DNA of 64,000 nt, taken from the IMG/VR virus record IMGVR_UViG_3300022777_000060. The stretch is one strand, 5' to 3'. This document shows, one piece after another, positions 3,447-64,000 of the stretch. Source of the stretch: a virus. The notes beneath the pieces were generated by a model. It did no database searches. It saw only the letters and a program-made list of their open reading frames with translations, and was not told the origin of the DNA. The translations under genes and the position numbers were made by a program. Every line of letters starts with the position of its first letter. The stretch's first letter is position 1.

Positions 3447-3506
3447 AGCTTGTGTCGTGTTGAGCGAGAGTTCTCGTGTTTTACCGTCTGTAGAATATAT
3501 ATTGCG

Positions 3507-11510: not shown

Positions 11511-12176
11511 TTATATATCCTCTCGATTTTCTCCTTCGACTTCTACGTAAAATACGTATCCTGCGAGCAGGCTGGCTTTCGCTATGAGGTATTGGCGCTC
11601 CTGCTCTGTCATTTCTCGCTCTTTTGCCGTGTAATCGACGCCGAGCATTCCAATAAGCACCCCGTCGATATTCCGCATCGCGAAAAGATGCATTTGCTCA
11701 GTCCCCCGCTGGCGAAACAGAAGTTCCACTTCGGGATCCACGTTCATTTGTCCCCCACTGTACGTGATATAGTCCTCTTTGATCAGATTTCCAATCATTT
11801 CCGAAAAGAATGAAACGAGCACGTCAGAAAACCTGTGCTGTTCTTTCGAGACGCCCGGAGCAGTGATTTCATGAGTCACTGATATTTTCTTCATCGAAGC
11901 GTCACGCACAGAGTTCAGAAACTTTCCGCCGTTGTGAAACTGCGCAATCCAACATCGATCAGCGCCAAGCTCTTCTCGAACCTCTTCAAGCTCGGCAGAG
12001 ATATTTTGCGCAAACTCAACTTCTTCGTCGAGAGTCCTTCGCTGTTCTCCGGAATCATCTACGGTTTCATCTTCGCTGCTATATCTCTCTTTTAGCCACC
12101 ATATAAAGAAAGGACCAAGAACTCCAGTGATTATAGCCGCTACAACACGTGTAATGGCAAAGATGCCTTCGAACAT
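11511..12176 (-). CDS. Putative holin, T4 gpT-like architecture (N-terminal TM + GAF-like domain)
   Basis: One N-terminal TM, then LEEVREELGADRCWIAQFHNGG...LIGMLGVDY, a GAF-like pattern. Confidence 0.55.
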   Translation of the reverse strand: MFEGIFAITRVVAAIITGVLGPFFIWWLKERYSSEDETVDDSGEQRRTLDEEVEFAQNISAELEEVREELGADRCWIAQFHNGGKFLNSVRDASMKKISVTHEITAPGVSKEQHRFSDVLVSFFSEMIGNLIKEDYITYSGGQMNVDPEVELLFRQRGTEQMHLFAMRNIDGVLIGMLGVDYTAKEREMTEQERQYLIAKASLLAGYVFYVEVEGENREDI

Positions 12177-18136: not shown

Positions 18137-21100
18137 CTAATACATTACGCTGCTGTAATCTCCCGACTCGATCTCCATGAGGTCGTCAACTGTGTCTCTC
18201 ATGACGTCGATGTGCGAGATTACCATGATGAAGTCAAAGTTGGTTTTCAGGTACTCGAAGAGCTGGTAGACGCTCGACATGTTTTCGCTGTCGAGGTTGC
18301 CAAAGCCTTCGTCAATGGCAAGGAAGTTTGGCCTTGGAAGATTGGAAATATCGATAAGCGCCGCCCGAATCGCGAGACTCGAAACAAACTTCTCCATTCC
18401 ACTTCCAAGCTCAAGTGCCCACATGTTTTCTTCGTCGTATACAATGTAAGCATTGATGTTTTTGCCGTCCACTTCAAGCACCACGCCGAAGTCCACCACT
18501 TGCGAGAGAATGGAGTTGATGTGCTGCTCGATTTGCGGAATGAACCGACTGATAAGCTCGTAGGGTACGCCGTCACGCTTGACCGCTTCAAGGTAGTACT
18601 CATACGCTTGATACTTCGTTGACAGCCCTTCGACTTTCGATAGGTTCTCTTCGGCTTGCTTTTGCTCTCGGTTGAGAACTCGAATGTCGGAGTGGACGTC
18701 TCGAAGTTCAGATTCGAGACCGGAGATTTCATCCTTGACCGCCGACAACTTATCATTCAGCTCGTCTGCTTTCTTTTCGAGCCTCTTGTTTTTCTCGATA
18801 CGGTCTTTGGCGTCGTTGTACTTCTGGATTTTGTTCTCAATGTCGTCGACACCGTCTCTTTTGTCCCGAACCTTGGACTTGAGGTTGGAGTGTTCGATCT
18901 TGACGCTCGACAGCTTTTGCTCTTGCTTTCGCTTATTGTCTCTCTTGGTCTTGTATTCGCTCCACCGCTCTTCAATCTTGGGGTTTCTTTGCTGCCTTGC
19001 TTCTTCGAGCTTCGATTTGAGGCCGTTGATTTCTTCTGTGAGATCGTCAATCTCTTCTTCAACCTCTTCGAGCTTGCGTGCGTCTTGCTTGTTTCGCTCA
19101 ACGCAGTATTCGCAGTCAGGATCGAACTCACGGTGGCTCAGGTGCTCCCGCTCTTCTTTCGCCTCTTCCAAGTCTTTGCGCTTGTATTTCAGCTTCGTCT
19201 CAATGTCGTCGATTTGAGTTTCGAGCTGCTGCTGTTTCTCGTATCGGTTTTCAAGTTGCTCGCCGTTGAACTGCTCAAGGAACGAGTCGAGGCCACCGAT
19301 TGCTTGTTCAAGCTCTCGCTTGCGGATTTCCTTCTGTTCGATCTGGTCTTCGGTGTCCTCAATCTCTTCCCGAAGCTCGACGTAGCGGCTTTTCAGATGG
19401 TCAATGTCAAGGTCAATATCCTCAATGTCGGACATCTTTTTGTTGAGGTCCATGATCTCCGACATGAGATCGGCCTTGCGGTCTTCCAAGTCAGATTTCT
19501 TGGACTCGATATTGTCACGGCGGCTTTTCTTCTCTTGCCGCTTCTCTTTACAGTGCTCGATTTTGTCTTGAAGGTCGGACTTGGAGTGCTCGTCCAAAAG
19601 GCTCTCAATGTGCTTTGACTTGTCTTTGGCTTCACTATAAAGCTCGTCGAACACGTTGAGTCCCATAAACCGTGCGAGCACATCTTTCCGCTCCGACTGG
19701 CTTTTCTCAATGAACAGGGTATTGTTGTTCTGAACCGAAAGCGCAGTCAGAATGAAGTCATCGAACTCTCCGACGTACTCACGGATGTTCGCGTTCGTAT
19801 CGTACCGCTGCTCGCCGTTCAGGTTCTCGCGGGTGCCGTCTTCGTGGACTCGATAGAAGTTCACGTCCACTGGAATGCGTTCCCGCTCTTTTTCGCCTTT
19901 GCGGTGAATGACGTATGTGGTGCCCTCAATCTCGAATGTAAGTTTACACTCGAACCAATCGGAGTTGTGATTGAGAATCTGGTCGGTCTTATATGCGCGT
20001 GTGCTCTTATCGAACAGGCAAAAGCACAGGGCATCCAGAATCGAGGACTTCCCCGTCGCGTTTTCAGAGAAGAGCCCAACGAGCCCGCCCATTTTCTCGA
20101 AGTTGATGACGTTGTTCTCCCCATACGAAAACATGTTGGAGAACTCGAACTTCTTCGGCCGCCACTTGATGTTGTTTACCAAGTCGTCGTCATCGAGCTG
20201 TTTGTTCAGCTCTTCGTTGATTTCACGGATCTCGGTGATTACTTCATCGGTCGCGGGGAAGTTTCGCTTGACGTAATCGGTAATCAAGTCGTTCTGGTAA
20301 GAAGTGGAAGTGAGATCCCCGATTGCCGAAGCCTCTTTTCCGCTGTCAAACGTGCCGTCGTCGTCCTCCACGCGCATTACCGAAAGCTGCTGGATGTTGT
20401 ACAAGTCCCGGACGTCGTCTGTAATGCGCCGAACCTCTGCGCCCGACGTGTTTTTAACTTTCAGCCGAAGTCTCGGCTTTTCGGGAATGTCTGGACGAAC
20501 AGGCAAGCTCGCCCCTTCGACTTGAAGCGTGTAGAAGCCGTATTCGTTTTCAAGCTCTACGTATTCAGGCTCTTCAACGTCGCCTTCCAAGTCCCAAACG
20601 AGAAAGCCGTGGCCAACATCCTCTCCGTGGTTTTGCTGAATGAGGCTTCCTGTGAACCACGCTTCAGGCCAGCGTCGCTTGAGAAGAGCCACGCCGTTTT
20701 CGTAGGTGTCAAGGTTCCAGCCGCCACCGACATACTCTTCGGCTTCGTCGCGACTGATTCGCGTTTTCTCCATGCGTGCTTCACTGATCCGCTGCCTTCG
20801 GTGAATATCCCCGAGAAGAGCCGCTTCAAAGCCCACGAACATGTGCTCGTCGACTTCATCGGATTTGAGCTGGTAGCCGTAGTCCGTCACGGCACGGTCA
20901 ACGACATCGTGGAAGATGGCAACCTTCCTGTATTCATCCGGAATCTCTTTTGCCCGAACATATTCGTCGGCGTCGTCCATGAAGTTCATGTGAGAGAACA
21001 CAACGTCTCCGACACGGTACAGTCCGGTCTCGAAAACGTAGTGGACGTTCGGGCGATCCATCGCTTGAATAATCGGCGTCAGAGCATCGAGCCGATCCGG

Positions 21101-21406
21101 ATTGTTTTCCAGACAGTCGTGGTTCCCCGGCGTGAGAATCGTTGGACAGATTTCGCCGAGAGTAGACAAAAACTCCGTGACCATATCCACAAGCTCAGGG
21201 CTCATGTCGGCCTTGGAATGAACCACGTCTCCCGCAATGACAATGAGGGAGTTTTCGGTTCGGCGCTCTTTGATTTCGCGATAGAGCTGAGAGAAAATTT
21301 GCCGGTACTCGTCGTGACGCTTGTAGTTGCGAATGTGAACGTCAGCGACGTGGAAAATCTTGTCGACGCTTTCGACGCCGATAGGTAGCTCTGTAATTTG
21401 GGCCAT
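18137..21406 (-). CDS. Fused SbcD/Mre11 nuclease - SbcC/Rad50 ATPase (T4 gp47+gp46-like)
   Basis: ADVHI, GDVVH, PGNHD, GDIH, GSLIQQN; Walker A ENATGKSS, CEYC hook, signature GSGME, Walker B IDEGFGNLD. Confidence 0.92.
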   Translation of the reverse strand: MAQITELPIGVESVDKIFHVADVHIRNYKRHDEYRQIFSQLYREIKERRTENSLIVIAGDVVHSKADMSPELVDMVTEFLSTLGEICPTILTPGNHDCLENNPDRLDALTPIIQAMDRPNVHYVFETGLYRVGDVVFSHMNFMDDADEYVRAKEIPDEYRKVAIFHDVVDRAVTDYGYQLKSDEVDEHMFVGFEAALLGDIHRRQRISEARMEKTRISRDEAEEYVGGGWNLDTYENGVALLKRRWPEAWFTGSLIQQNHGEDVGHGFLVWDLEGDVEEPEYVELENEYGFYTLQVEGASLPVRPDIPEKPRLRLKVKNTSGAEVRRITDDVRDLYNIQQLSVMRVEDDDGTFDSGKEASAIGDLTSTSYQNDLITDYVKRNFPATDEVITEIREINEELNKQLDDDDLVNNIKWRPKKFEFSNMFSYGENNVINFEKMGGLVGLFSENATGKSSILDALCFCLFDKSTRAYKTDQILNHNSDWFECKLTFEIEGTTYVIHRKGEKERERIPVDVNFYRVHEDGTRENLNGEQRYDTNANIREYVGEFDDFILTALSVQNNNTLFIEKSQSERKDVLARFMGLNVFDELYSEAKDKSKHIESLLDEHSKSDLQDKIEHCKEKRQEKKSRRDNIESKKSDLEDRKADLMSEIMDLNKKMSDIEDIDLDIDHLKSRYVELREEIEDTEDQIEQKEIRKRELEQAIGGLDSFLEQFNGEQLENRYEKQQQLETQIDDIETKLKYKRKDLEEAKEEREHLSHREFDPDCEYCVERNKQDARKLEEVEEEIDDLTEEINGLKSKLEEARQQRNPKIEERWSEYKTKRDNKRKQEQKLSSVKIEHSNLKSKVRDKRDGVDDIENKIQKYNDAKDRIEKNKRLEKKADELNDKLSAVKDEISGLESELRDVHSDIRVLNREQKQAEENLSKVEGLSTKYQAYEYYLEAVKRDGVPYELISRFIPQIEQHINSILSQVVDFGVVLEVDGKNINAYIVYDEENMWALELGSGMEKFVSSLAIRAALIDISNLPRPNFLAIDEGFGNLDSENMSSVYQLFEYLKTNFDFIMVISHIDVMRDTVDDLMEIESGDYSSVMY

Positions 21407-27750: not shown

Positions 27751-27819
27751 CAATCAAGTTTTTAGCGTCCCACCGCCAAGTTTATATATCCAGTGAGACG
27801 GCGATTTACCGTTGATTTT

Positions 27820-46851: not shown

Positions 46852-46937
46852 GGTCCTGTTATTGTTGTAGGAGATTCAAAGTTTTCTTATGCGACTTCGC
46901 TTCTATATATGCGGCGTTTGCTCGACACCCCCGACAC

Positions 46938-53260: not shown

Positions 53261-53342
53261 ATCGTGTATTGTGAGTTTTGTTCAAGTGTTCGCGTATTTA
53301 TATATCTCGCTATTCCCCCTCACCGCTTGAACTTTTCGTCAA

Positions 53343-55498: not shown

Positions 55499-56087
55499 TT
55501 ACTTTGTAAGGATTCCCACGCCCATTTGTTCCAGCTCATGGAGCGCTTCATCCGAATTTTCCAAACCCTTCGTCACGTTGTCAAAAACGTAGGTGTCGAA
55601 GTTCTCGTGTACAGCGTCCTTCGCCGTCCACTTCACGCAAAAGTCGGTGGCGAGTCCAACGATGTACACACGGCTGACCGAACGTGCGTTCAAGTAAGCG
55701 GCAAGTCCTGTGTTTGTCTTTCCGTCGTTCTCGTAAAATCCCGAGTACGAGTCAAGGTGCTGCCGAAACCCTTTGCGAATGATCATGTTCGCTTGGGTTG
55801 TGTCGAGATCCGGATGAAACTCCGCACCTTCCGTTCCCTGAACGCAGTGGTCGGGCCAAAGCACCTGTTCTCCGTACTCAGCGTCCATCACGTCAAACGG
55901 CTCGGCGCCGCCGTGAGAGGAAGCAAACGAGCTGTGACCGGAAGGGTGCCAATCTTGCGTAAGCACCACGCAATCGAAATCCTCCATCAACTCGTTTGCG
56001 GCCGGAACAATGTCTTCGCCGCCGGGCACTTCAAGGGCGCCACCAGTGCAGAAGCTTCTGCACGTCAACTACAATGAACGCTTCCAT
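55499..56087 (-). pseudogene. pncA: Nicotinamidase/pyrazinamidase with an apparent 2-nt deletion near codon 11
   Basis: MEAFIVVDVQ (ATG 56087) and FCTGGAL..QDWHP..WPDHCVQG..DSYSGF..GLATDFCV lie in different frames. Confidence 0.8.
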
Positions 56088-56191
56088 AAGTCAAGGTGTA
56101 ACAGGTTATCAGATAGTTATACGCCGCCTCTATCGGGATGATGAAAACCCAAGGGATCGCAACCCCAAGGGGCCGACGAAGCGGCTTAGAG

Positions 56192-56264
56192 CCGTCCCAG
56201 TCGGATTTGAACCGACGCTACAACCGTGACAGGGTCGCGTGCTGGGCCACTACACTATGGGACG
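56192..56264 (-). tRNA. tRNA-Asp(GTC)
   Basis: CGACC-CTGTCAC-GGTTG; G73. Confidence 0.92.
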
Positions 56265-56268
56265 AATG

Positions 56269-56343
56269 CTCCCCCTATGGGACTTGAACCCATGTTCTCC
56301 GCCGTGACAGGGCGGCGTTCACTCCAAGCTGAACCGAGGGGGA
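56269..56343 (-). tRNA. tRNA-Asp(GTC), divergent second copy (C at position 8)
   Basis: CCGCC-CTGTCAC-GGCGG; full cloverleaf. Confidence 0.8.
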
Positions 56344-56412
56344 ATGTTTCTTTCTACCGTGCGTCTATTATATATGGAGCAAAGTCGAAAGTTTCAAGCT
56401 CAACGGGAAGAT

Positions 56413-57186
56413 TCAAGGCTGCTTCACGTTGTATTCGGCCGTGAAGGTTTCTGTCGTCGGTGCTGCGAAAGGTGGAACAGTCACACGATACTCAACCTTG
56501 AACTGTCCGGAAGACCCTTGAGGATCAAACTGAATGCCTGTTGAAGCGTCTTGCCATCCTTCTCCCGAAGGGTTTGCTTCAATGATCCAACCGCTTGGAA
56601 GTTCCTCCACTATCGAGAACTTAACAAAGTCTTCAGATTGGAAGTTCGAGTATTGAACCGTCACTTGGCTGCTGAACGGTTCTTCTGAGTTTCCGTACGG
56701 AGCAAAGTCAGCAAAAATGTCGGGCTCAGCCGTGATTGACGGCTGAGACGGTTGTGAAACGATCGTGTTGCTGCAACTTACGATATTCGCACTAGCGCCA
56801 GCTCCAGCATATAGACACAGTTTGAACTCAAAACGCCCACTTGGGATCTCGTGCTCAATGTCATCGGTATACTCAACGTTTGTGTTGAAGTTGTTTTTCT
56901 TTCGAAGCACATTTGATGCAGTGTTCGAGTTGCCATTCACAAACGCGAAGTTTCCCGTCGTTAAGTTGTCGAACCGGATTTGTTTCGGTGGCCCCACTTC
57001 CGGCTTAACCCGAAGACTAGGATCATTATTTCCGGGTCCAGCAAAATCACTCGGGTTAGCACAGTAGTTCGCCCGCAACTCTCCACTGCTTTCAACTACA
57101 ACATCAATGGAGGTCGCGCAATCCTGCCCGAAAGCCGAAATAGGAAACATCAAAACGAGAAACAGAATCAGATTTCGCATAACCAC
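56413..57186 (-). CDS. Secreted two-domain beta protein, putative pilus tip adhesin/minor pilin
   Basis: Signal peptide ending AFG, paired Cys, beta-strand-rich Ig-like segments; last gene of the operon. Confidence 0.55.
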   Translation of the reverse strand: MVMRNLILFLVLMFPISAFGQDCATSIDVVVESSGELRANYCANPSDFAGPGNNDPSLRVKPEVGPPKQIRFDNLTTGNFAFVNGNSNTASNVLRKKNNFNTNVEYTDDIEHEIPSGRFEFKLCLYAGAGASANIVSCSNTIVSQPSQPSITAEPDIFADFAPYGNSEEPFSSQVTVQYSNFQSEDFVKFSIVEELPSGWIIEANPSGEGWQDASTGIQFDPQGSSGQFKVEYRVTVPPFAAPTTETFTAEYNVKQP

Positions 57187-59523
57187 CTATTCATTGAGAA
57201 ATATCACATCTTCCTCGCTTTCGACAGTGAGAGAAATGTCCACGTGTTCGGCAGGACTTGTTTCAACTGTCTTTTCAGAAACAAGCGTCACGTCATTGAG
57301 ATTCTTCACCAGGCGGACCTTCCAAGATCCGGAAGGAACCGCATTGAACTGAACCTTTCCTCTCTCGTCAGAAACACGCCGAAAAGACCTTTTTCCGTTT
57401 GTCAACTCAACGACAACCCCACTCCGAAAAGACCCGTTTTTCTCAAGCACCGTTCCTTCAATAGAAGCACTTTCAATCAAGCGAACAGTTCTTCGGGTTT
57501 GTTGTGCTCCGTATACGGAAACATCCTTGGCAGTGTTCCGAACGATTTGGTTGACAGAAAGGTTCTGAGGAAGAACGCGAATCGAGTGTTCTCCCACTGG
57601 AAGGTTCACGGCATACTTTCCGTCACTATTCGTTTTCGTAGCCTTGTCTCCTATAAGCAAAATCACGCGCGAAACCGGGTCGCCGTTTTCGTCAACCACT
57701 TTTCCAGTAACAAGTCCCACGGAACGGTCTTTATGAACGGGAACGCCAATCTTTTTCGATGCTTCAAACTCAAAACCCCACCGCTTCCGAAAATAGTTCT
57801 GATAGGATCCTTTCAAACCAAACGAGTATCCAGAGTCAAACGTTCCGGAAACTCCAATGTCAGCGCTTTCACTCCACTCCCCGCGACGACTTTGAAGTGA
57901 AACGCTTGCTCTCGCGAACATCCGATTCCGGAACTCGTAGCTGTAAGAAGCGTTCAGTTCCAACTCTTCGCGAAAGTAAGTGTCTTCATACGTCACAGAG
58001 TTTGAAAACCCGTTGTACCCGACCGTGAGGTTATAGTATTCCTCCATCTTCGGCGTCCAAGAAAGCCGTGTTCTCGAACGAACGGAAAACGTTTCGTTTC
58101 GGAAACCTGCGTGACCACCGACTGTGTTTTCCGTTCGGCCAATGTCGTTTTGTTCGTTTTCATAGTAGACGCCGAAGTGCTCCCGACTCAAGTCGAACCG
58201 AAACGTGCGCCCTGAAAAGAAACGGCCGACGTCTTTGAACACTCCCGCCGAAATCTTGGTGTCGTAAATCTCGGTTCCTGCTTCAACCTCATAGTTTTCC
58301 GATCCACGTTCAAACGAAACGTTGTCACTTGAAAACCGCTCGGCGGCTACGTGAAGATAGCTGTCGAAACTTTCTACCGTTCCGTCAATCATGTAAGAAA
58401 GTCCTGTACCGAAGTCAAGTCCAACCTCTCCCAAGATCGAAACGTGATCTTGGTTCAACCCCGACTCCAACGAAAACGTGTTTCCCACGAATCCATTGTT
58501 GGCGTGAGTGAAGTTTCCGCCCACGTGCAGCGACTCAGTGAGGTCGTAGGTTGAGAACATATGATACTGCTTTCTGTCGAGACCGGACCGCCGTGTTCCA
58601 GTGTAGGACCATCCGATGCTCAAACGTTCATATTCTCGCTCAACACCGATTCCGAAACCAGACGTTCCCTCTCCCCCAAGTGTGGACGTGTGAAAAAACT
58701 GATCTCCAAGGCGAATCTGATAATCTGGAGTTCGGACTGTCGCTTTGTACGTACTTCGGTTCGGGAACACAGAGAATCCGTTCAGATTCGAAAGTGGCGG
58801 CGTTTCAATGAGAAAGTCCAGCACCGTTTCGCTTCCTTTTTCAACCGGAGCCGTTCCTTCAGCCCAAAACTGAGACTGGCTACCAACGTCTTCGTAAGAA
58901 GAACGTACCCCCACTTCAACTGAAAACTCGTATCGTTTGATTGAAGCGTCTTCCGATACAGAAACCATACGGATCCTCTCCGAAAACGTTTCTACCTGCT
59001 CTCCTGTGTTGACCGTAACAGACACAAAAGTTTCATTTTCGATAACCTTTTCAACGTCCACAACGGCTTTTTCTCCGACTTCAAGTTTCAAGTTTCGCGA
59101 AACGTCGCCGCTGATAGAAACGCTTGTGGGAACGTTGGAGTTGTTCGTGATCGTGACCCGTCCGAAAGCCTTGCCACCGGCGACAACATACTTTGAGTCC
59201 AGTGAAAAACTTGCCGCCACATCATGGACTTCTGGAACCTTCACAAGCCGCTGCTGCGCCGTTCCCGCTGCCGTGAACGTTACTTCGTATGTTCCTGCCT
59301 CTGTTCCTTCGGGGACCGAAACCCGGACGAGCTGAAGCGACTTTGTTGACCGCTCTTCAAACAGGCTAACGCCCCATCCCTTCGGTACATCTAGATCGGC
59401 TTTGTACTCACCGTCTGACGAAACCGTAAAGGAAAGTGTAGTCGTCCCACCCGGCCGAACTTCCTGAGCAGCCGTCGTTGCTGGAACAACTATCAAAAGT
59501 AGAAGCCACAGCAGCTTCTTCAT
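57187..59523 (-). CDS. Usher-like outer-membrane beta-barrel with N-terminal Ig-like and two C-terminal carboxypeptidase-regulatory-like domains
   Basis: Signal peptide; long run of amphipathic G/aromatic strands; LVTGKVVDENGDPV...TNSDGKY and SIEGTV...SDERGKVQF..VPSG.W. Confidence 0.6.
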   Translation of the reverse strand: MKKLLWLLLLIVVPATTAAQEVRPGGTTTLSFTVSSDGEYKADLDVPKGWGVSLFEERSTKSLQLVRVSVPEGTEAGTYEVTFTAAGTAQQRLVKVPEVHDVAASFSLDSKYVVAGGKAFGRVTITNNSNVPTSVSISGDVSRNLKLEVGEKAVVDVEKVIENETFVSVTVNTGEQVETFSERIRMVSVSEDASIKRYEFSVEVGVRSSYEDVGSQSQFWAEGTAPVEKGSETVLDFLIETPPLSNLNGFSVFPNRSTYKATVRTPDYQIRLGDQFFHTSTLGGEGTSGFGIGVEREYERLSIGWSYTGTRRSGLDRKQYHMFSTYDLTESLHVGGNFTHANNGFVGNTFSLESGLNQDHVSILGEVGLDFGTGLSYMIDGTVESFDSYLHVAAERFSSDNVSFERGSENYEVEAGTEIYDTKISAGVFKDVGRFFSGRTFRFDLSREHFGVYYENEQNDIGRTENTVGGHAGFRNETFSVRSRTRLSWTPKMEEYYNLTVGYNGFSNSVTYEDTYFREELELNASYSYEFRNRMFARASVSLQSRRGEWSESADIGVSGTFDSGYSFGLKGSYQNYFRKRWGFEFEASKKIGVPVHKDRSVGLVTGKVVDENGDPVSRVILLIGDKATKTNSDGKYAVNLPVGEHSIRVLPQNLSVNQIVRNTAKDVSVYGAQQTRRTVRLIESASIEGTVLEKNGSFRSGVVVELTNGKRSFRRVSDERGKVQFNAVPSGSWKVRLVKNLNDVTLVSEKTVETSPAEHVDISLTVESEEDVIFLNE

Positions 59524-60275
59524 TCAGAAACTTCAAAATCGATGCGGAGTCCGTACTTGTTCTTTCGCCCGTCCATAATCAAGACGCCAGAGTATTTTCC
59601 GACTTCAAGCTCTGACACGTCAATCTCAGTTGTCAGAGACGTATTCGGGTGAAGAAGGTGTTGGGTTCCTTTGAACGTTCCAACCCTCTTTCCGTCTTGA
59701 CTGAACGCTTGAAGCTCAATCCGTGGACGAATCGAAATCGATCCGGTGTTTTCCAAATCCAGAAACAACTTTCCGTTGTCGTACTGAATACGGTTTGCTT
59801 GAACATCCACGTTTCCCCCCGAAGCGGTAGCCACAACGTTGATTCCCCATCTGTATCTTTGCTTCATTTGTATCGTTCCCGTCGTGTCCGTCAGGGACTT
59901 CGAGGCAGGCATAATCGTCAGCATTTTCCAGTATGACCCGCTTGCAGAATCCGGAAGCGTCACTCTGTATGTGAGTTCTCTACGGCTTTTCGCGGGAATC
60001 CGAAGAACGGACGGCGAGTGATCAATATCGAGAGAACGGTTGTGATCATGCTTCGTGCCCTTTCGCTCAATACCGAACAGGTAGTTCTCTGTGCCAAGCT
60101 GAACCCGAATCTCTTCGGAAGTCGTGTTGCCAACTTCAATCTTCGCCGTCTTTGTCTGTCCTGCTTCAACTTCATGCCACCGTACGAGTTCGGAATACAC
60201 CTTGACGCCCGGTTGCGCCGAAGCAACGGAAACGAAGAAAAACAGTGAAACCGCAAGCAAAAGTGACTGTCTCAT
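59520..60275 (-). CDS. PapD-like periplasmic pilus chaperone
   Basis: Signal peptide; two Ig-like domains, IEVGNT.....RV, SPSVLRIP...TLP..ASGSYW, LENTGSISIRP. Confidence 0.65.
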   Translation of the reverse strand: MRQSLLLAVSLFFFVSVASAQPGVKVYSELVRWHEVEAGQTKTAKIEVGNTTSEEIRVQLGTENYLFGIERKGTKHDHNRSLDIDHSPSVLRIPAKSRRELTYRVTLPDSASGSYWKMLTIMPASKSLTDTTGTIQMKQRYRWGINVVATASGGNVDVQANRIQYDNGKLFLDLENTGSISIRPRIELQAFSQDGKRVGTFKGTQHLLHPNTSLTTEIDVSELEVGKYSGVLIMDGRKNKYGLRIDFEVSE

Positions 60276-60363
60276 ATGAGTCTTGTTGTGTTTATACGCT
60301 GCTAAGTAAAGCGTAAATCAAACCAAAGCGCGATCCGATTGTTTCCCACTTCAAAGGACTTTC

Positions 60364-60402
60364 AAAAACAAATCCCGACCCCTCACAAAAGAGGCCGGGA
60401 TC
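60364..60402 (-). terminator. Terminator/attenuator after the pilin-like gene
   Basis: ATCCCGGCCTC...GAGGGGTCGGGAT + TTGTTTTT. Confidence 0.7.
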
Positions 60403-60429
60403 ACTTTTTTCAAAATGTCGTCGGATTCG

Positions 60430-61047
60430 TTAGTTCGCGGTGATCGTGTAGGTTACGGTACGGCTAACTGTTCCCGGATTGGCAAATCGGTCAAGGTCGA
60501 AGGTGTACTCGAAATTAACAGTACCTCCACCCTGATCGATATCATTCACAAAGTTAGCGTCACCACTATTCACTGGAACTCCTGTTTGTGGCACACCACT
60601 TTTATTTCCCCCATTCGGAAGACCTGTAATAGAAATAGCGTCAGCATTCACATTCACGGGATCCCCACCGAGATCAAAGTCTGAATCAGCCGAAACCAAA
60701 ATCTTCTGTGTGTTTTGGCTGTTCGTTCCATATACGAGTTTGAAGGTCGCCACAGTCGCACTAATCTGGCCACTGGAAATCCCTTCATTAGTAATTGAAA
60801 CTACATTACCCCCTGTAGTTAACTGCGCAATATCCGCGTTTGGATCTGGAGTTCCGTCCACTTCCAAAGTTATATTTGGAAGGACTCCACTATTTCCCGG
60901 CCCGATAAATGCGAACGATTGAGCAGTCACCGTCACGTTGTGTGAAGCGTTATTGTTTGGAGGGCCTTGTGCCTGAGCACTGGGAGCCGTTGCGATGCCG
61001 ACGAAAAGGAAAAGTGCCGCAAGTGCAGCGAGTGTGCGATTGAACAT
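60430..61047 (-). CDS. Putative major pilin-like secreted protein
   Basis: Signal peptide AQA/Q; N-terminal HNVTVTA strand; C-terminal PGTVSRTVTYTITAN strand; own terminator. Confidence 0.6.
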   Translation of the reverse strand: MFNRTLAALAALFLFVGIATAPSAQAQGPPNNNASHNVTVTAQSFAFIGPGNSGVLPNITLEVDGTPDPNADIAQLTTGGNVVSITNEGISSGQISATVATFKLVYGTNSQNTQKILVSADSDFDLGGDPVNVNADAISITGLPNGGNKSGVPQTGVPVNSGDANFVNDIDQGGGTVNFEYTFDLDRFANPGTVSRTVTYTITAN

Positions 61048-61136
61048 GTTGTTTAGTTGTGTTTGAGAAAAAGTGTGTTGGATTATCACTTACTATATAT
61101 CACTCAACCGGGCCTTGTTCCGAACCTTTTCTTCAT

Positions 61137-61337
61137 TCATCGAAGGTTCATGCTCGCAAAAGACAAAAGCCCAACGCCTGCAAGCGCCGTCATGAGAAAT
61201 GTGATGAACACTCCCACCACTTGAGGCGACGTGCCGCTTATGGCGCCGCCCACAACCGTCGTGACCGCAACGAACGGAATAAGCAAAGTGCAGGCGAGGA
61301 ATGTAAAGTATTTGACTCGCTCAGAAAGAGGGTCCAT
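61137..61337 (-). CDS. Small two-TM membrane protein
   Basis: Two hydrophobic helices. Confidence 0.6.
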   Translation of the reverse strand: MDPLSERVKYFTFLACTLLIPFVAVTTVVGGAISGTSPQVVGVFITFLMTALAGVGLLSFASMNLR

Positions 61338-61361
61338 GCGTGTGCGCGTGATATAATAATG

Positions 61362-61676
61362 TCAGTGAATGCAACTGCCTTCAAATCCGCAATCCGGACA
61401 CGTAGCGGTGTAAACCTGTGCGAAGCCACCACCCTTCGGCTTTTCATTTGAACCGCATTCTGGACACGGGGCTCCACGCCGGGCATATCGCTCGCTCATT
61501 TTGTGGTGGCGAGTGCCGAGAGCGTCGTGCCTATCTTCGAGCCTCTCGATTTTCTTCTCGATTTCCCGCTGCCGACTGCGAATATCGCTTGGCTTGTTCG
61601 GATACTCCTTTGTCTCCGTGTCGGTGTCAGTGTTGTTTTCAAGCTCTTTCCGGTGCCTCTCTGCAGCGTCACTCAT
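61362..61676 (-). CDS. Coiled-coil + Zn-ribbon protein
   Basis: CPECGS...CPDCG. Confidence 0.7.
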   Translation of the reverse strand: MSDAAERHRKELENNTDTDTETKEYPNKPSDIRSRQREIEKKIERLEDRHDALGTRHHKMSERYARRGAPCPECGSNEKPKGGGFAQVYTATCPDCGFEGSCIH

Positions 61677-61754
61677 TTTGACATCGGCTTCTGTGAGAAG
61701 AGAATGTATATGCTCTTACGGCCGAAGACAAAGAAATGTTCCGTGAAGAAAAAG

Positions 61755-61786
61755 CAAAACCCAAGCCCGCCGAAACGGACTTGGGC
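61755..61786 (-). terminator. Intrinsic terminator after tRNA-Gln
   Basis: CCCAAGTCCG-TTTCGG-CGGGCTTGGG + TTTT. Confidence 0.7.
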
Positions 61787-61798
61787 ATTGAATGGTTG

Positions 61799-61871
61799 CT
61801 GCCCCGCAAGGAGTCGAACCTTGAACCTGGTGATCCAAAGTCACCCGCTCTGCCGATTGAGCTACGGAGCA
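61799..61871 (-). tRNA. tRNA-Gln(TTG)
   Basis: GGTGA-CTTTGGA-TCACC. Confidence 0.9.
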
Positions 61872-63470: not shown

Positions 63471-63544
63471 TCCCCTCGGTAGGACTTGAACCTACGACCT
63501 CCTGTTCCGCAAACAGGTGTTCCTCCAAACTGAACTACGAGGGA
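63471..63544 (-). tRNA. tRNA-Arg(GCG)
   Basis: CCTGT-TTGCGGA-ACAGG; A73. Confidence 0.88.
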
Positions 63545-64000
63545 GTATCAAATAAACTGTTTTCTATCTCATAATCTTCTGCCCAATTTACTCTTTTTGT
63601 TTGCCCGTTTTTGGTTTCAGTTGTTCTCAACTTGCATACCGTAGAGGGCGTTTCTGCAACCGGGACTATGTAAACTTGTTCTTTTTCGCTTGCATACACC
63701 GCAAAAAAGTCTATGTCTTCCGAAGAGTATGTATATGTTCTTGTTTCCGATGGCATTTTCGTTTGCCATCTGCATCGGAACTCAACAGCATCTTGTTTCG
63801 TATTTCCGTGCTTACATTGTATTCGGTAAAACTCTCCGAAAGCGTCAACTACAAAGTCATATCTTTTTTCTCCCCTCGGATCTAAAACCGTATGTCCTAA
63901 CTCAGTAAACTTGGCTGCTACCTTTTCCGCAGTTACTCTTCCAAGATATTTGTTCGTCTCTAAAAACTCTTTTCTCGTTTGTTTCGGTTTTGCCTGCGTT
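63535..64000 (-). mobile_element. PD-(D/E)XK homing-type endonuclease (PDDEXK_5-like), 5' truncated by the window edge
   Basis: Manual extension of the frame to 63999: LGRVTAEKVAAKF..GHTVLDPRGEKRYDFVVD..FYRIQCK...IDFFAVY...VYIVPV. Confidence 0.8.

What the first reader, a model, noticed from the sequence alone, without database searches (positions are those of the whole stretch)
56413..61110. Complete chaperone-usher-like pilus operon carried by a T4-like phage inside its tRNA region
Seen: four co-oriented genes, all with signal peptides, in the order pilin-like (61047-60430), two-Ig chaperone-like (60275-59520), 778-aa beta-barrel/usher-like with C-terminal Ig domains (59523-57187), and a Cys-paired adhesin-like gene (57186-56413). 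The last three are tightly coupled. A terminator follows only the pilin gene, which would give subunit excess, and an ATATATA promoter-like motif (about 61094-61100) precedes it. Known: this is the gene order of archaic (Csu-type) chaperone-usher fimbriae, which are normally chromosomal or plasmid-borne. Inference: the phage builds its own surface fimbriae on infected cells. Possible roles are aggregating infected cells with new hosts, masking or decoying receptors against competing viruses, or aiding persistence. I know of no described case in a T4-like virus.
Basis: partly seen in the sequence, partly recalled or inferred. Interest (0 to 1): 0.92.

Follow-up and report, generated by a model that had tools for sequence, protein, structure and literature searches.

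The report
Phage-borne chaperone-usher-like pilus operon
A large environmental phage carries a compact four-gene kit, kept intact by selection, that looks built to grow a strand-swapped fibre on the infected cell's surface. The kit (subunit, periplasmic chaperone, outer-membrane pore, tip protein) is a trimmed copy of a widespread, undescribed bacterial system whose chaperone is related to the Gram-positive WxL pilus chaperone, not to classical fimbrial chaperones.

Summary
Four co-oriented genes with signal peptides (A 61047-60430, B 60275-59520, C 59523-57187, D 57186-56413) sit between two tRNA arrays of a phage. A terminator follows A, and an over-represented ATATATA element precedes it.

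The system works like a chaperone-usher pilus but is not Csu-type or any classical CU family.

- **B (chaperone):** a soluble homologue of the Gram-positive WxL-interacting protein (profile vs PDB 9i25, E 7.5e-13; Z 15.4). CU chaperones are next by fold (Z about 13).
- **C (pore):** an Ig-Ig / 24-strand barrel / Ig-Ig protein. Its best structural matches are the FimD and PapC ushers (Z 16.3-16.7). It has no usher sequence signal and no plug domain.
- **A (subunit):** belongs to an unannotated subunit family.
- **B + A complex:** the prediction passes its controls (0.87 vs 0.10; the mark was reached by 58 of 80 solved complexes and 2 of 110 mismatched pairs). It shows donor-strand-complementation geometry.

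The same A-B-C cassette occurs in at least 480 species genomes across many diderm phyla. At least five phage-like lineages carry it, forming one clade. dN/dS is 0.04-0.16.

This scan had already found the cellular cassette on other DNA; the phage-borne copy is new. What the phage gains from it is unknown.

The parts
61094..61100 (-). ATATATA promoter-like element, 47 nt upstream of the ATG of gene A
   Evidence: The motif occurs 9 times in the window against 0.55 expected, and 0 of 100 shuffles reach 9. All 7 minus-strand copies lie 26-53 nt upstream of gene or tRNA starts. It is not conserved in the related phage contigs.
60430..61047 (-). Gene A: major subunit (pilin-like), 205 aa. It has a signal peptide, a free N-terminal beta-strand segment, and a conserved C-terminal strand ending ...TVTYTITAN
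   Evidence: It belongs to a family with no Pfam or PDB sequence match. That family fills the 1-6 slots upstream of B, and often a slot downstream of C, in 80 cellular loci. The predicted complex with B scores 0.87 against a best control of 0.10. Atlas neighbours include 'putative WxL domain' clusters, which is a lead only. dN/dS against L002 is 0.12.
60371..60402 (-). Intrinsic-terminator-like hairpin directly after gene A (14-bp stem, T tract)
   Evidence: sequence read. A weak sigma-70-like match (60365-60338) follows it, upstream of B.
59520..60275 (-). Gene B: periplasmic two-Ig-domain chaperone, 251 aa, homologous to WxLIP (DUF916+DUF3324) but without the C-terminal membrane helix
   Evidence: The family has 601 cluster representatives at E<=1e-3. 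The family profile matches PDB 9i25_C/9i1y_A (EfmWxLIP1) at E 7.5e-13 over both domains. The AF2 model has pLDDT 93.8. Foldseek and VIA rank WxLIP first (Z 15.4), then CfaA, Caf1M, CsuC, FimC and PapD at Z 11-13. dN/dS is 0.04.
57187..59523 (-). Gene C: usher-like outer-membrane protein, 778 aa. It has a signal peptide, two N-terminal beta-sandwich domains, a run of 24 beta-strands (residues 196-597) and two C-terminal CarboxypepD_reg beta-sandwich domains
   Evidence: Pfam finds NPCBM_assoc and CarboxypepD_reg only. The AF2 model has pLDDT 85. The Foldseek top 11 are FimD/PapC, E 1.8e-15 to 3e-10. VIA gives the PapC/FimD pores Z 16.3-16.7 over residues 196-596, both in the second look and in the exhaustive search of 48,161 chains. 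Homologues lie directly downstream of B in about 60 cellular loci. dN/dS is 0.16.
56413..57186 (-). Gene D: probable tip subunit, 257 aa. It has a signal peptide, an N-terminal domain with four conserved Cys, a Pro/Ser linker, and a C-terminal domain ending in the pilin-type strand motif. It has no N-terminal donor-strand segment
   Evidence: It is conserved in L002/L089 (65% identity) and L086 (37%) and absent from LR756508. hhalign of the D family against the phage A family gives probability 87%, E 4e-6, over the last 32 residues only. It has no Pfam hit. dN/dS is 0.14.
56369..56375 (-). Next ATATATA element, 38 nt after the stop of D and 26 nt before tRNA-Asp; it marks the start of the next transcription unit

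Best explanation
The operon encodes a surface-fibre system that assembles by donor-strand exchange and is exported through an usher-like pore. The phage makes it in an infected diderm host, probably a member of the Bacteroidota or a related FCB-group phylum.

**Proposed steps**
1. All four proteins cross the inner membrane by Sec.
2. In the periplasm, chaperone B caps subunit A. It inserts its strand at residues 134-146 next to, and parallel with, the C-terminal strand of A. Its N-terminal strand pairs with the first core strand of A. The N-terminal segment of A stays free.
3. C forms a large outer-membrane barrel. Its periplasmic Ig-like domains receive the chaperone-subunit complexes.
4. D has a pilin-type C-terminal motif but no donor strand, so it enters first and becomes the tip.
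5. [quoted passage not shown]
6. The terminator after A gives an excess of subunit over the assembly machinery.

**Shown here**
- The homologies of A, B and C.
- The architecture and conserved cassette order.
- The predicted B:A interface.
- Purifying selection on all four genes.
- Phage ownership of the operon.

**Inferred, not shown**
- Polymerisation of A.
- Export through C.
- The tip role of D.
- Timing of expression.
- Any benefit to the phage, such as adhesion or aggregation of infected cells, or altered access to receptors.
For: - **B is a WxLIP homologue.** The profile matches at E 7.5e-13 and the fold at Z 15.4, with every class of CU chaperone next. WxLIP/ElrE has been shown experimentally to be a donor-strand-complementing pilus chaperone (bioRxiv 10.64898/2026.10.17.759780).
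- **The B+A complex prediction passes its controls.** The score is 0.87 against a best control of 0.10. The mark was reached by 58 of 80 solved complexes and 2 of 110 mismatched pairs; these counts hold only roughly because my own alignments were used. The three runs agree in at least 83% of contacts, and the partner's pLDDT is at least 69. Contacts 136:195, 138:197 ... 146:204 show parallel pairing with the C-terminal strand of A. B residues 21-31 contact A residues 43-51. A residues 34-42 are left out of the interface.
- **C resembles ushers most.** The FimD and PapC pores rank first in Foldseek, in the VIA second look and in the exhaustive VIA search. Its 24 strands and two C-terminal sandwich domains follow the usher domain order.
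- **The cassette order is conserved.** The order (1-6 A genes, B, C, often 1-2 more A genes) holds in 80 loci from many diderm phyla.
- **D carries the pilin C-terminal motif**.
- **A terminator follows A** and a promoter-like element precedes it.
- **Phage copies form one clade.** Support is 99 for the five lineages, and dN/dS is 0.04-0.16.
Against: - No fibre, polymer or expression has been observed.
- C has no sequence similarity to ushers and no room for an usher plug domain. Other large barrels score within 1-2 Z units: OccK/OpdQ 15.4, MtrB 14.4, TonB-dependent transporters about 14. The usher assignment therefore rests on barrel size, coverage and domain order, not on a clear margin.
- The link of A to WxL domains rests only on Atlas look-alikes.
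- The similarity of D to the pilin family covers only 32 residues.
- The complex score is the model's own confidence, and a WxLIP:WxL complex is in the PDB, so part of the pass may reflect likeness.
- In the L002 lineage, gene A is frameshifted at a T9 tract.
Confidence: 0.6

Rival explanations
1. The system is a chaperone-escorted export or surface-display route that does not polymerise. B keeps A (and D) in a foldable state, and C translocates them as monomers or small complexes, giving a phage-specified surface coat or adhesin rather than a fibre.
For: The B:A interface and the barrel fit this reading equally well. No polymer evidence exists. C lacks an usher plug and usher-type N-terminal domain. 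LR756508 carries only A, B and C.
Against: A keeps a conserved free N-terminal beta-strand segment that is outside the chaperone interface. Cellular cassettes carry up to 6 paralogous subunits, as pilus operons do. The only experimentally studied homologues of B build polymers (preprint).
Confidence: 0.2
2. The main payload is the outer-membrane barrel C, which alters the receptor landscape of the infected cell (superinfection exclusion or a transport function). A, B and D would be accessory or vestigial passengers copied along with it.
For: Huge phages commonly encode beta-barrel outer-membrane proteins, and receptor interference has been proposed for them (bioRxiv 10.64898/2026.10.24.761521).
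Against: A, B and D are all under purifying selection; B is the most constrained, at dN/dS 0.04. A, B and C are retained together in all five phage lineages. That preprint covers barrels of 6-22 strands with no chaperone or subunit partners.
Confidence: 0.08
3. It is a true member of the classical or archaic (Csu-type) chaperone-usher family that has diverged beyond sequence recognition.
For: Both B and C fold like CU chaperones and ushers. One weak PapD_N hit was found, at E 0.034.
Against: The profile of B finds WxLIP at E 7.5e-13 and no CU chaperone even at E<=10. There are no SCPU or usher Pfam hits and no PDB usher hit with the C profile. C has no plug domain. The published CLANS map places the WxLIP and PapD families apart.
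Confidence: 0.04
4. The segment is a host contig joined to phage DNA by misassembly, or a recently captured and decaying passenger.
For: The cellular homologues are far more numerous than the phage ones. The cassette was found in only 1 of 50,697 GenBank phage records, and the three IMG/VR scans found none.
Against: Depth is even, with no joints across either border, in two samples, although both may come from the source study. GC content matches the window. The same cassette sits among tRNAs in LR756508, L002/L089 and L087. The phage copies are monophyletic and only about 30% identical to the nearest cellular ones. Purifying selection acts on all four genes. A phage-type promoter motif precedes A.
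Confidence: 0.02

Closest known systems
Elr / WxL pilus of Enterococcus faecalis and other Bacillota (chaperone ElrE = WxLIP, DUF916+DUF3324; Sleutel et al., bioRxiv 10.64898/2026.10.17.759780; PDB 9i25, 9i1y)
   Same: The chaperone is homologous by sequence and fold over both Ig domains. This includes the hairpin region that donates the strand. The predicted chaperone strand pairs parallel to the subunit's C-terminal strand, as reported for ElrE:ElrD. Small subunit genes sit next to the chaperone gene.
   Different: Here the chaperone is soluble, with no C-terminal membrane helix; 96.7% of WxL chaperones have one. There is a large outer-membrane barrel, and there is no LPxTG anchor or sortase. 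The subunits do not match the Pfam WxL domain. The hosts are diderms, whereas the preprint states that the system is confined to Bacillota. This copy is phage-borne.
Classical and archaic chaperone-usher pili (FimC/FimD, PapD/PapC, Caf1M, CfaA, CsuC/CsuD)
   Same: The operon logic is the same: subunit, terminator, chaperone, outer-membrane platform, tip subunit. The chaperone has the two-Ig fold (Z 11-13). The barrel is of usher size class, is followed by two beta-sandwich domains, and has ushers as its top structural matches. The predicted donor-strand complementation uses both chaperone strands.
   Different: No sequence membership was found in PapD_N/PapD_C, Usher or fimbrial/SCPU families. 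There is no plug domain. The N-terminal region is two NEW3/CARDB-like Ig domains instead of the usher N-terminal domain. The C-terminal domains are of CarboxypepD_reg type.
Unnamed diderm cassette (small subunits, WxLIP-like periplasmic protein, ~900-1150-aa CarboxypepD_reg barrel) in Bacteroidota, Ignavibacteriota, Zixibacteria, Chromatiaceae and others
   Same: A, B and C are each homologous to the cellular parts and lie in the same order. The nearest cellular cassettes are L009 (a bacterial contig) and L006.
   Different: The phage version is the smallest: one A gene, and a 778-aa C with trimmed loops against a median of 991 aa. It adds a D gene found only in the phage contigs among the loci compared. 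It sits in a phage tRNA region. I found no publication on the cellular cassette; earlier notes of this scan describe it on other DNA.
Pam pilus of CPR bacteria (Troman et al., bioRxiv 10.64898/2026.03.03.709456)
   Same: Donor-strand pilins with membrane-associated, CU-like chaperones outside the classical CU families.
   Different: Pam chaperones are anchored in the membrane, and those hosts have no outer membrane and no barrel. The paper reports Pam pilins as exclusive to CPR. No sequence link to Pam was tested here.
Phage-encoded outer-membrane beta-barrels of huge phages (bioRxiv 10.64898/2026.10.24.761521) and lambda Lom
   Same: Phage genes that place proteins in the host outer membrane.
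   Different: Those are single barrels of 6-22 strands. No chaperone, subunit or usher-like partners, and no pili, are reported.

Membership tests
Classical chaperone-usher pathway (Fim/Pap/Caf/CFA) | Chaperone belongs to the PapD family by sequence (PF00345/PF02753) | tested here: not met
   PapD_N scores E 0.034, below its cut-off. Only 1 of 70 family members matches at E<0.01. The family profile finds no CU chaperone in PDB at E<=10.
Classical chaperone-usher pathway (Fim/Pap/Caf/CFA) | Chaperone has the two-Ig-domain fold | tested here: met
   The model has pLDDT 93.8. CfaA, Caf1M, CsuC, FimC and PapD score Z 11-13 with 170-200 residues aligned.
Classical chaperone-usher pathway (Fim/Pap/Caf/CFA) | Usher belongs to PF00577 by sequence | tested here: not met
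   There is no Usher Pfam hit. The C-family profile finds no usher in PDB.
Classical chaperone-usher pathway (Fim/Pap/Caf/CFA) | 24-strand translocation barrel followed by two C-terminal beta-sandwich domains | tested here: met
   DSSP on the model shows 24 strands at residues 196-597, then two sandwich domains. The FimD/PapC pores are the top matches (Z 16.3-16.7, 337-346 residues aligned, rmsd about 7 A). Full-length FimD aligns through residue 767. The margin over other barrels is only 1-2 Z units.
Classical chaperone-usher pathway (Fim/Pap/Caf/CFA) | Plug domain inserted in the barrel, and an usher-type N-terminal domain | tested here: not met
   No inter-strand insert is longer than 30 residues, and that one (489-518) is disordered. 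The N-terminal region is two NPCBM_assoc-like sandwich domains.
Classical chaperone-usher pathway (Fim/Pap/Caf/CFA) | Chaperone strand complements the subunit's incomplete fold, parallel to its C-terminal strand | tested here: met
   This is a prediction only. The score is 0.87 against a best control of 0.10 (the mark was reached by 58 of 80 solved complexes and 2 of 110 mismatched pairs). The three runs agree in at least 83% of contacts, and the partner's pLDDT is at least 69. The register is parallel, 136:195 to 146:204.
Classical chaperone-usher pathway (Fim/Pap/Caf/CFA) | Subunits polymerise by donor-strand exchange | not testable with these tools
Only a conserved free N-terminal strand segment is seen.
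Archaic (Csu / SCPU) chaperone-usher class | Subunits carry the spore-coat-U (SCPU, PF05229) domain | tested here: not met
   A has no Pfam hit, and none of the 44 A-family members scanned has one.
WxL / Elr pilus system (Bacillota) | Chaperone is homologous to WxLIP (DUF916+DUF3324) | tested here: met
   The profile matches 9i25_C/9i1y_A at E 7.5e-13 over both domains. Structurally it is the top match at Z 15.4. Pfam hits are sub-threshold: phage B scores E 0.003, and 18 of 70 members match WxLIP_PGBD.
WxL / Elr pilus system (Bacillota) | Chaperone is tethered by a C-terminal transmembrane helix | tested here: not met
   B ends right after the second Ig domain at residue 251, and the model shows no C-terminal helix. 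Family members are 250-285 aa long.
WxL / Elr pilus system (Bacillota) | Pilins carry the WxL domain (PF13731) | tested here: inconclusive
   There is no Pfam or PDB sequence hit. Atlas look-alikes include WxL-named clusters (feature score 0.92-0.96; TM 0.52-0.54), which is a lead only.
WxL / Elr pilus system (Bacillota) | LPxTG anchor subunit with sortase, and a monoderm host | tested here: not met
   By inspection of the translations, none of A to D has an LPxTG motif. The system includes an outer-membrane barrel, and its relatives are in diderm phyla.
Unnamed diderm WxLIP-type / usher-like cassette | A-, B- and C-type genes, each homologous, in the order A(n)-B-C | tested here: met
   phmmer/HMM census of 85 loci, and a tree placing the phage clade beside L006 and L009.
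TLP-1 pond-water fibrils (PDB 9IKJ/9IKK), suggested by earlier scan notes for related cassettes | Subunit is related by sequence to TLP-1a/b | tested here: not met
   The A-family profile and two single members give no PDB hit to 9ikj or 9ikk at E<=10. No fold comparison was possible because there is no model of A.

The most novel reading that the evidence does not exclude
A lineage of large phages equips its infected cell with a phage-specified donor-strand-exchange fibre, assembled by a third kind of machinery: a WxLIP-type soluble chaperone plus a plugless usher-like barrel. That machinery bridges the Gram-positive WxL pili and the Gram-negative chaperone-usher pili, and is widespread but undescribed in diderm bacteria. 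The phage copy (one subunit, chaperone, 778-aa pore, tip protein) would be the minimal natural version of that pathway.
Probability: 0.5. Interest if true: 0.88.

Novelty: new variant of a known kind. Interest (0 to 1): 0.8.

Why it matters
Three points would matter if this reading is right.

1. **A new kind of phage cargo.** Phages are known to carry single outer-membrane proteins, but I found no report of one carrying a complete pilus-assembly pathway. A phage that grows its own fibres on the infected cell would be a new form of surface remodelling, with possible effects on adhesion, aggregation, biofilm life or access by competing phages.

2. **A wider range for WxLIP-type chaperones.** The WxLIP-type pilus chaperone has just been described as confined to Bacillota and as always membrane-anchored. 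Here it has soluble relatives in at least 480 diderm species genomes, coupled to an usher-like barrel. That bears on whether WxL pili and chaperone-usher pili share an origin.

3. **A small experimental handle.** The phage cassette is the smallest natural version (3-4 genes, 4.7 kb), which makes this undescribed pathway practical to test.

Tried and rejected
- **Pfam, NCBIfam and PHROGs on the four proteins.** Only weak or generic hits.
- **Phage collections.** A megablast of the region gave only a tRNA-sized match. Three IMG/VR scans (single protein, phage-only alignment, family alignment) found no relative. tblastn of B and C against 50,697 phage records found only LR756508.
- **Whole-genome search.** No whole genome is held for this window.
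- **P0002.** This 73%-identical relative of C could not be traced to a contig.
- **TLP-1 lead from earlier notes.** No sequence link for this subunit family.
- **L009 as another huge phage.** Rejected: its flanks are ordinary bacterial genes.
- **Promoter conservation.** A 14-nt extension of the motif is not recurrent, and upstream regions of the phage relatives share no motif. The 7-mer itself is strongly enriched.
- **First D-versus-A comparison.** With shallow alignments it was inconclusive, at probability 20%. It improved with richer alignments but covers only the C-terminal 32 residues.
- **First dN/dS run for A.** It used an out-of-frame slice and was discarded; the corrected value is.
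- **Literature searches.** Searches for phage-borne chaperone-usher or fimbrial operons, and for a diderm WxLIP-usher system, found nothing relevant.
- **Expression.** No RNA run holds the stretch, so expression is untested.

Full report
**1. The observation**

The four minus-strand ORFs are real and lie at the stated coordinates: A 60430-61047 (205 aa from the ATG), B 59520-60275 (251 aa), C 57187-59523 (778 aa) and D 56413-57186 (257 aa). Each begins with a Sec-type signal peptide. B and C overlap by 4 nt, and D starts directly after the stop of C. A 154-nt spacer after A holds a 14-bp-stem terminator-like hairpin with a T tract at 60402-60371.

The ATATATA motif at 61094-61100 is not a chance feature. 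It occurs 9 times in the window against 0.55 expected, and no shuffle out of 100 reaches 9. All seven minus-strand copies lie 26-53 nt upstream of a gene or tRNA start. One of them (56369-56375) follows the stop of D and precedes tRNA-Asp, so the cassette is bracketed as its own transcription unit.

Six tRNA genes lie downstream and seven upstream, all on the same strand.

**2. Whose DNA it is**

The window encodes a T4-type portal, a large terminase, an SbcCD-like fusion, a baseplate wedge protein and a Dda-like helicase. By portal identity its closest relatives are:
- the 484-kb uncultured phage LR756508 (50%);
- Microcystis phage Mel-JY01 (47%);
- the Flavobacterium 'immuto' phages (44%);
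- true T4-likes, at only 25-31%.

GC content across the cassette matches the rest of the window. Contigs from two samples of one study tile 55800-61800 at even depth with no joints or loose ends. Single pieces run from the tRNA-Asp genes into D and from A into the upstream region. These samples may be the source of the window, so the independent evidence against a chimera is synteny in other assemblies:
- LR756508 carries A (37% identity), B (46%) and C (29%) in the same order among tRNAs.
- L002/L089, from four runs of another study, carry A to D among tRNAs.
- L086, a 77-kb contig of small unannotated genes, carries two A genes plus B, C and D.
- L087 carries A, B and the start of C beside 12 tRNAs and a YopX gene.

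**3. The chaperone-like protein B**

An exhaustive HMMER search found 601 cluster representatives at E<=1e-3 and 214 at E<=1e-10. A profile of 70 members (A1) matches the solved structure of Enterococcus faecium WxLIP1 (PDB 9i25_C, 9i1y_A) at E 7.5e-13 across both domains. It matches no classical pilus chaperone even at E<=10. Pfam hits of members are sub-threshold: WxLIP_PGBD in 18 of 70, WxLIP_HBD in 7 of 70 and PapD_N in 1 of 70.

The AF2 model (pLDDT 93.8) is closest to WxLIP (Foldseek E 9e-13; VIA Z 15.4, 217 residues aligned, rmsd 6.3 A). Dozens of chaperone-usher chaperones of every class follow: CfaA, Caf1M, CsuC, FimC and PapD at Z 11-13.

Unlike WxLIP, B ends right after its second Ig domain and has no membrane helix. 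It should therefore be a soluble periplasmic protein.

**4. What is known about WxLIP**

WxLIP was first proposed to stabilise WxL proteins by inserting a hairpin strand (PMC10599100). A preprint of October 2026 shows by cryo-EM and biochemistry that the Elr/WxL cluster builds a pilus. The WxLIP protein ElrE complements the pilin ElrD with a strand running parallel to the pilin's C-terminal strand. ElrD then polymerises by antiparallel donor-strand exchange (10.64898/2026.10.17.759780).

That paper states that the system is confined to Bacillota, that 96.7% of its chaperones have a C-terminal membrane helix, and that there is no usher. It searched at Pfam gathering thresholds, which the family described here does not reach.

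**5. The subunit A and its predicted complex with B**

A has no Pfam or PDB sequence relatives, either alone or as a 44-member profile. Its family shares three features: a signal peptide, a beta-strand segment right after it, and a strongly conserved extreme C-terminus (consensus TVTYTLTxN). Atlas look-alikes include a 275-member Bacteroidota cluster auto-named 'putative WxL domain-containing protein', and WxL-Pfam clusters at TM 0.52-0.54. This is a lead, not a test.

The complex prediction of mature B with mature A gave a score of 0.87 against a best control of 0.10. The mark was reached by 58 of 80 solved complexes and 2 of 110 mismatched pairs; these counts hold only roughly because my own alignments were used. 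The three runs agree in at least 83% of contacts, and the partner's pLDDT is at least 69.

The most confident contacts pair B 136, 138, 140, 142, 144 and 146 with A 195, 197, 199, 201, 203 and 204. Both indices rise together, so the chaperone strand lies parallel to the subunit's last strand. The N-terminal strand of B (21-31) touches A 43-51. A residues 34-42 are outside the interface.

This is the geometry of donor-strand complementation, with a free N-terminal segment left for exchange. It is a model's confidence, not a measurement. A WxLIP:WxL complex is in the PDB, so likeness may contribute to the pass.

**6. The large protein C**

Pfam sees only an N-terminal NPCBM_assoc domain and two C-terminal CarboxypepD_reg domains. 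A 54-member profile hits only NOMO-type sandwich domains in PDB and no usher.

The AF2 model (pLDDT 85) shows a signal peptide, two beta-sandwich domains, 24 consecutive long strands (residues 196-597) with one disordered 30-residue loop, and two more beta-sandwich domains.

- Foldseek ranks FimD and PapC in its first 11 places (E 1.8e-15 to 3e-10, about 800 aligned columns). TM-scores are low (0.17-0.33), as expected for mobile domains.
- VIA-align gives the PapC and FimD translocation pores Z 16.6 (322-346 residues aligned, rmsd 7 A), covering the whole barrel. Full-length FimD aligns on to residue 767.
- An exhaustive comparison with 48,161 PDB representatives again puts FimD (16.7) and PapC (16.3) first.
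- The margin is small. 18-strand OccK/AlgE barrels reach about 15.5 but cover only residues 197-473. MtrB and the TonB-dependent transporters reach about 14.

C has no usher-type plug insert and no usher N-terminal domain. I therefore call it usher-like in architecture, not a member of the usher family.

**7. The cellular counterpart**

A scan of one genome per species found at least 480 genomes with a B relative. They include Bacteroidota, Ignavibacteriota, Zixibacteria, Rhodothermota, Chromatiaceae, Thermodesulfobacteriota, Planctomycetota, Armatimonadota, Chlorobiota, Spirochaetota and the diderm Bacillota genus Orenia.

In the 79 loci kept, plus two metagenomic ones, an ORF and HMM census shows a fixed layout: 1-6 A-family genes, then B, then a 900-1150-aa C, and often 1-2 further A-family genes, all on one strand. 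Plain phmmer with the phage protein detects C homologues in about 60 of these loci. A homologues are detected directly in L009, L006 and L082.

The phage C is a trimmed version of the cellular ones, with shorter loops and no missing domain. I found no paper describing this diderm cassette. Earlier notes of this scan describe it on other genomes, so the cellular system is not new to the scan. The phage-borne copy is: no look-alike of B was noted before.

**8. Phage copies as a lineage**

In a quick maximum-likelihood tree of 86 B proteins, the five phage-type copies form one clade (SH-aLRT 99). It is nested beside L006 and L009 (support 96-97) and apart from the other 79. The careful tree search did not finish. 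L009 is bacterial: its flanks encode TauE, lycopene cyclase, alanine racemase and SbcCD.

Between the window and L002, dN/dS is 0.12 for A, 0.04 for B, 0.16 for C and 0.14 for D. dS is near saturation, so the values are approximate. The genes are therefore maintained, not decaying cargo.

The cassette is rare among catalogued phages. It occurs in 1 of 50,697 GenBank phage records, and three IMG/VR scans found none.

**9. Protein D**

D is conserved in L002/L089 (65% identity) and L086 (37%), with four invariant Cys in the N-terminal half, a Pro/Ser-rich linker and a C-terminal domain. LR756508 has no D.

The last 32 residues match the C-terminal two-strand motif of the phage A family (hhalign probability 87%, E 4e-6). 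The general A-family HMM does not detect D.

The mature protein begins directly with the Cys-containing domain, so it has no donor-strand segment. This is the layout of tip adhesins such as FimH, PapG and CsuE (established knowledge). The role here is inferred, and no receptor-binding fold was tested.

**10. Mechanism and verdict**

The best-supported reading has these steps:
1. All four proteins are exported by Sec.
2. B caps A by strand complementation (and probably D as well).
3. The usher-like barrel C receives these complexes on its periplasmic Ig domains.
4. D enters first, as the tip.
5. A polymerises by donor-strand exchange and is threaded outward.
6. The terminator after A gives an excess of subunit.

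Polymerisation, export, timing and the benefit to the phage are all inferred. The main rival is a non-polymerising, chaperone-escorted surface-display route.

The system works like a chaperone-usher pilus. Its chaperone belongs to the WxLIP superfamily. It fails the sequence tests for the classical and Csu families. It also fails the membrane-anchor, sortase and monoderm tests for the Elr system.

I rate it a new variant of a known kind. Interest is high because it is phage-borne, because it contradicts the stated taxonomic limits of the WxL chaperone family, and because it is a minimal, testable version of an undescribed pathway.

Noticed in passing
L002:6524-6532 (identical in L003, L004, L089): In the L002-type phage, gene A is split by a frameshift at a T9 homopolymer inside the signal-peptide coding region. 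T10 would give an intact signal peptide plus mature subunit. The same T9 is seen in assemblies of four runs. It could be slipped-strand phase variation, a pseudogene or a systematic assembly error.
   Followed up: partly
window 3496-3502, 11512-11518, 27783-27789, 46904-46910, 53299-53305, 56369-56375, 61094-61100 (minus strand): [G/C]ATATATA[A/G] is about 16-fold over-represented and always lies 26-53 nt upstream of a minus-strand gene or tRNA start. It is probably a phage promoter element resembling the T4 late -10 box. No matching sigma factor was sought.
   Followed up: partly
window 55499-56068 (-): An isochorismatase-family (nicotinamidase-like) gene sits between two tRNA pairs just downstream of the cassette (Pfam E 1e-18). 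It is possibly linked to the NAD+ salvage reported for jumbo phages.
   Followed up: no
window 63535-63999 (-) and L002:12810-13472: A PD-(D/E)XK endonuclease (PDDEXK_5) lies inside the tRNA array both in the window and in the related contig L002. The tRNA region seems to collect mobile and accessory genes.
   Followed up: no
L001 (LR756508.1 11979-26399): The 484-kb phage carries only A, B and an 833-aa C. The two small ORFs after C are unrelated to D or A. This is a tip-less version of the cassette.
   Followed up: partly
L086:5040-11041: A more distant phage-like contig has two A paralogues, B, a 938-aa C with a weak LysM hit, and a 298-aa D. The phage cassettes therefore vary in subunit number, as cellular ones do.
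   Followed up: partly
window 18137-21406 (-): A single 1089-aa protein fuses an Mre11/SbcD-type phosphoesterase to a Rad50/SbcC-type ATPase. In T4 these are two proteins (gp47 and gp46).
   Followed up: no
window 61137-61337 (-): A 66-aa ORF with two hydrophobic segments lies directly upstream of the promoter-like element of gene A. It has no Pfam hit, and L002 shows no comparable small ORF at that position.
   Followed up: no
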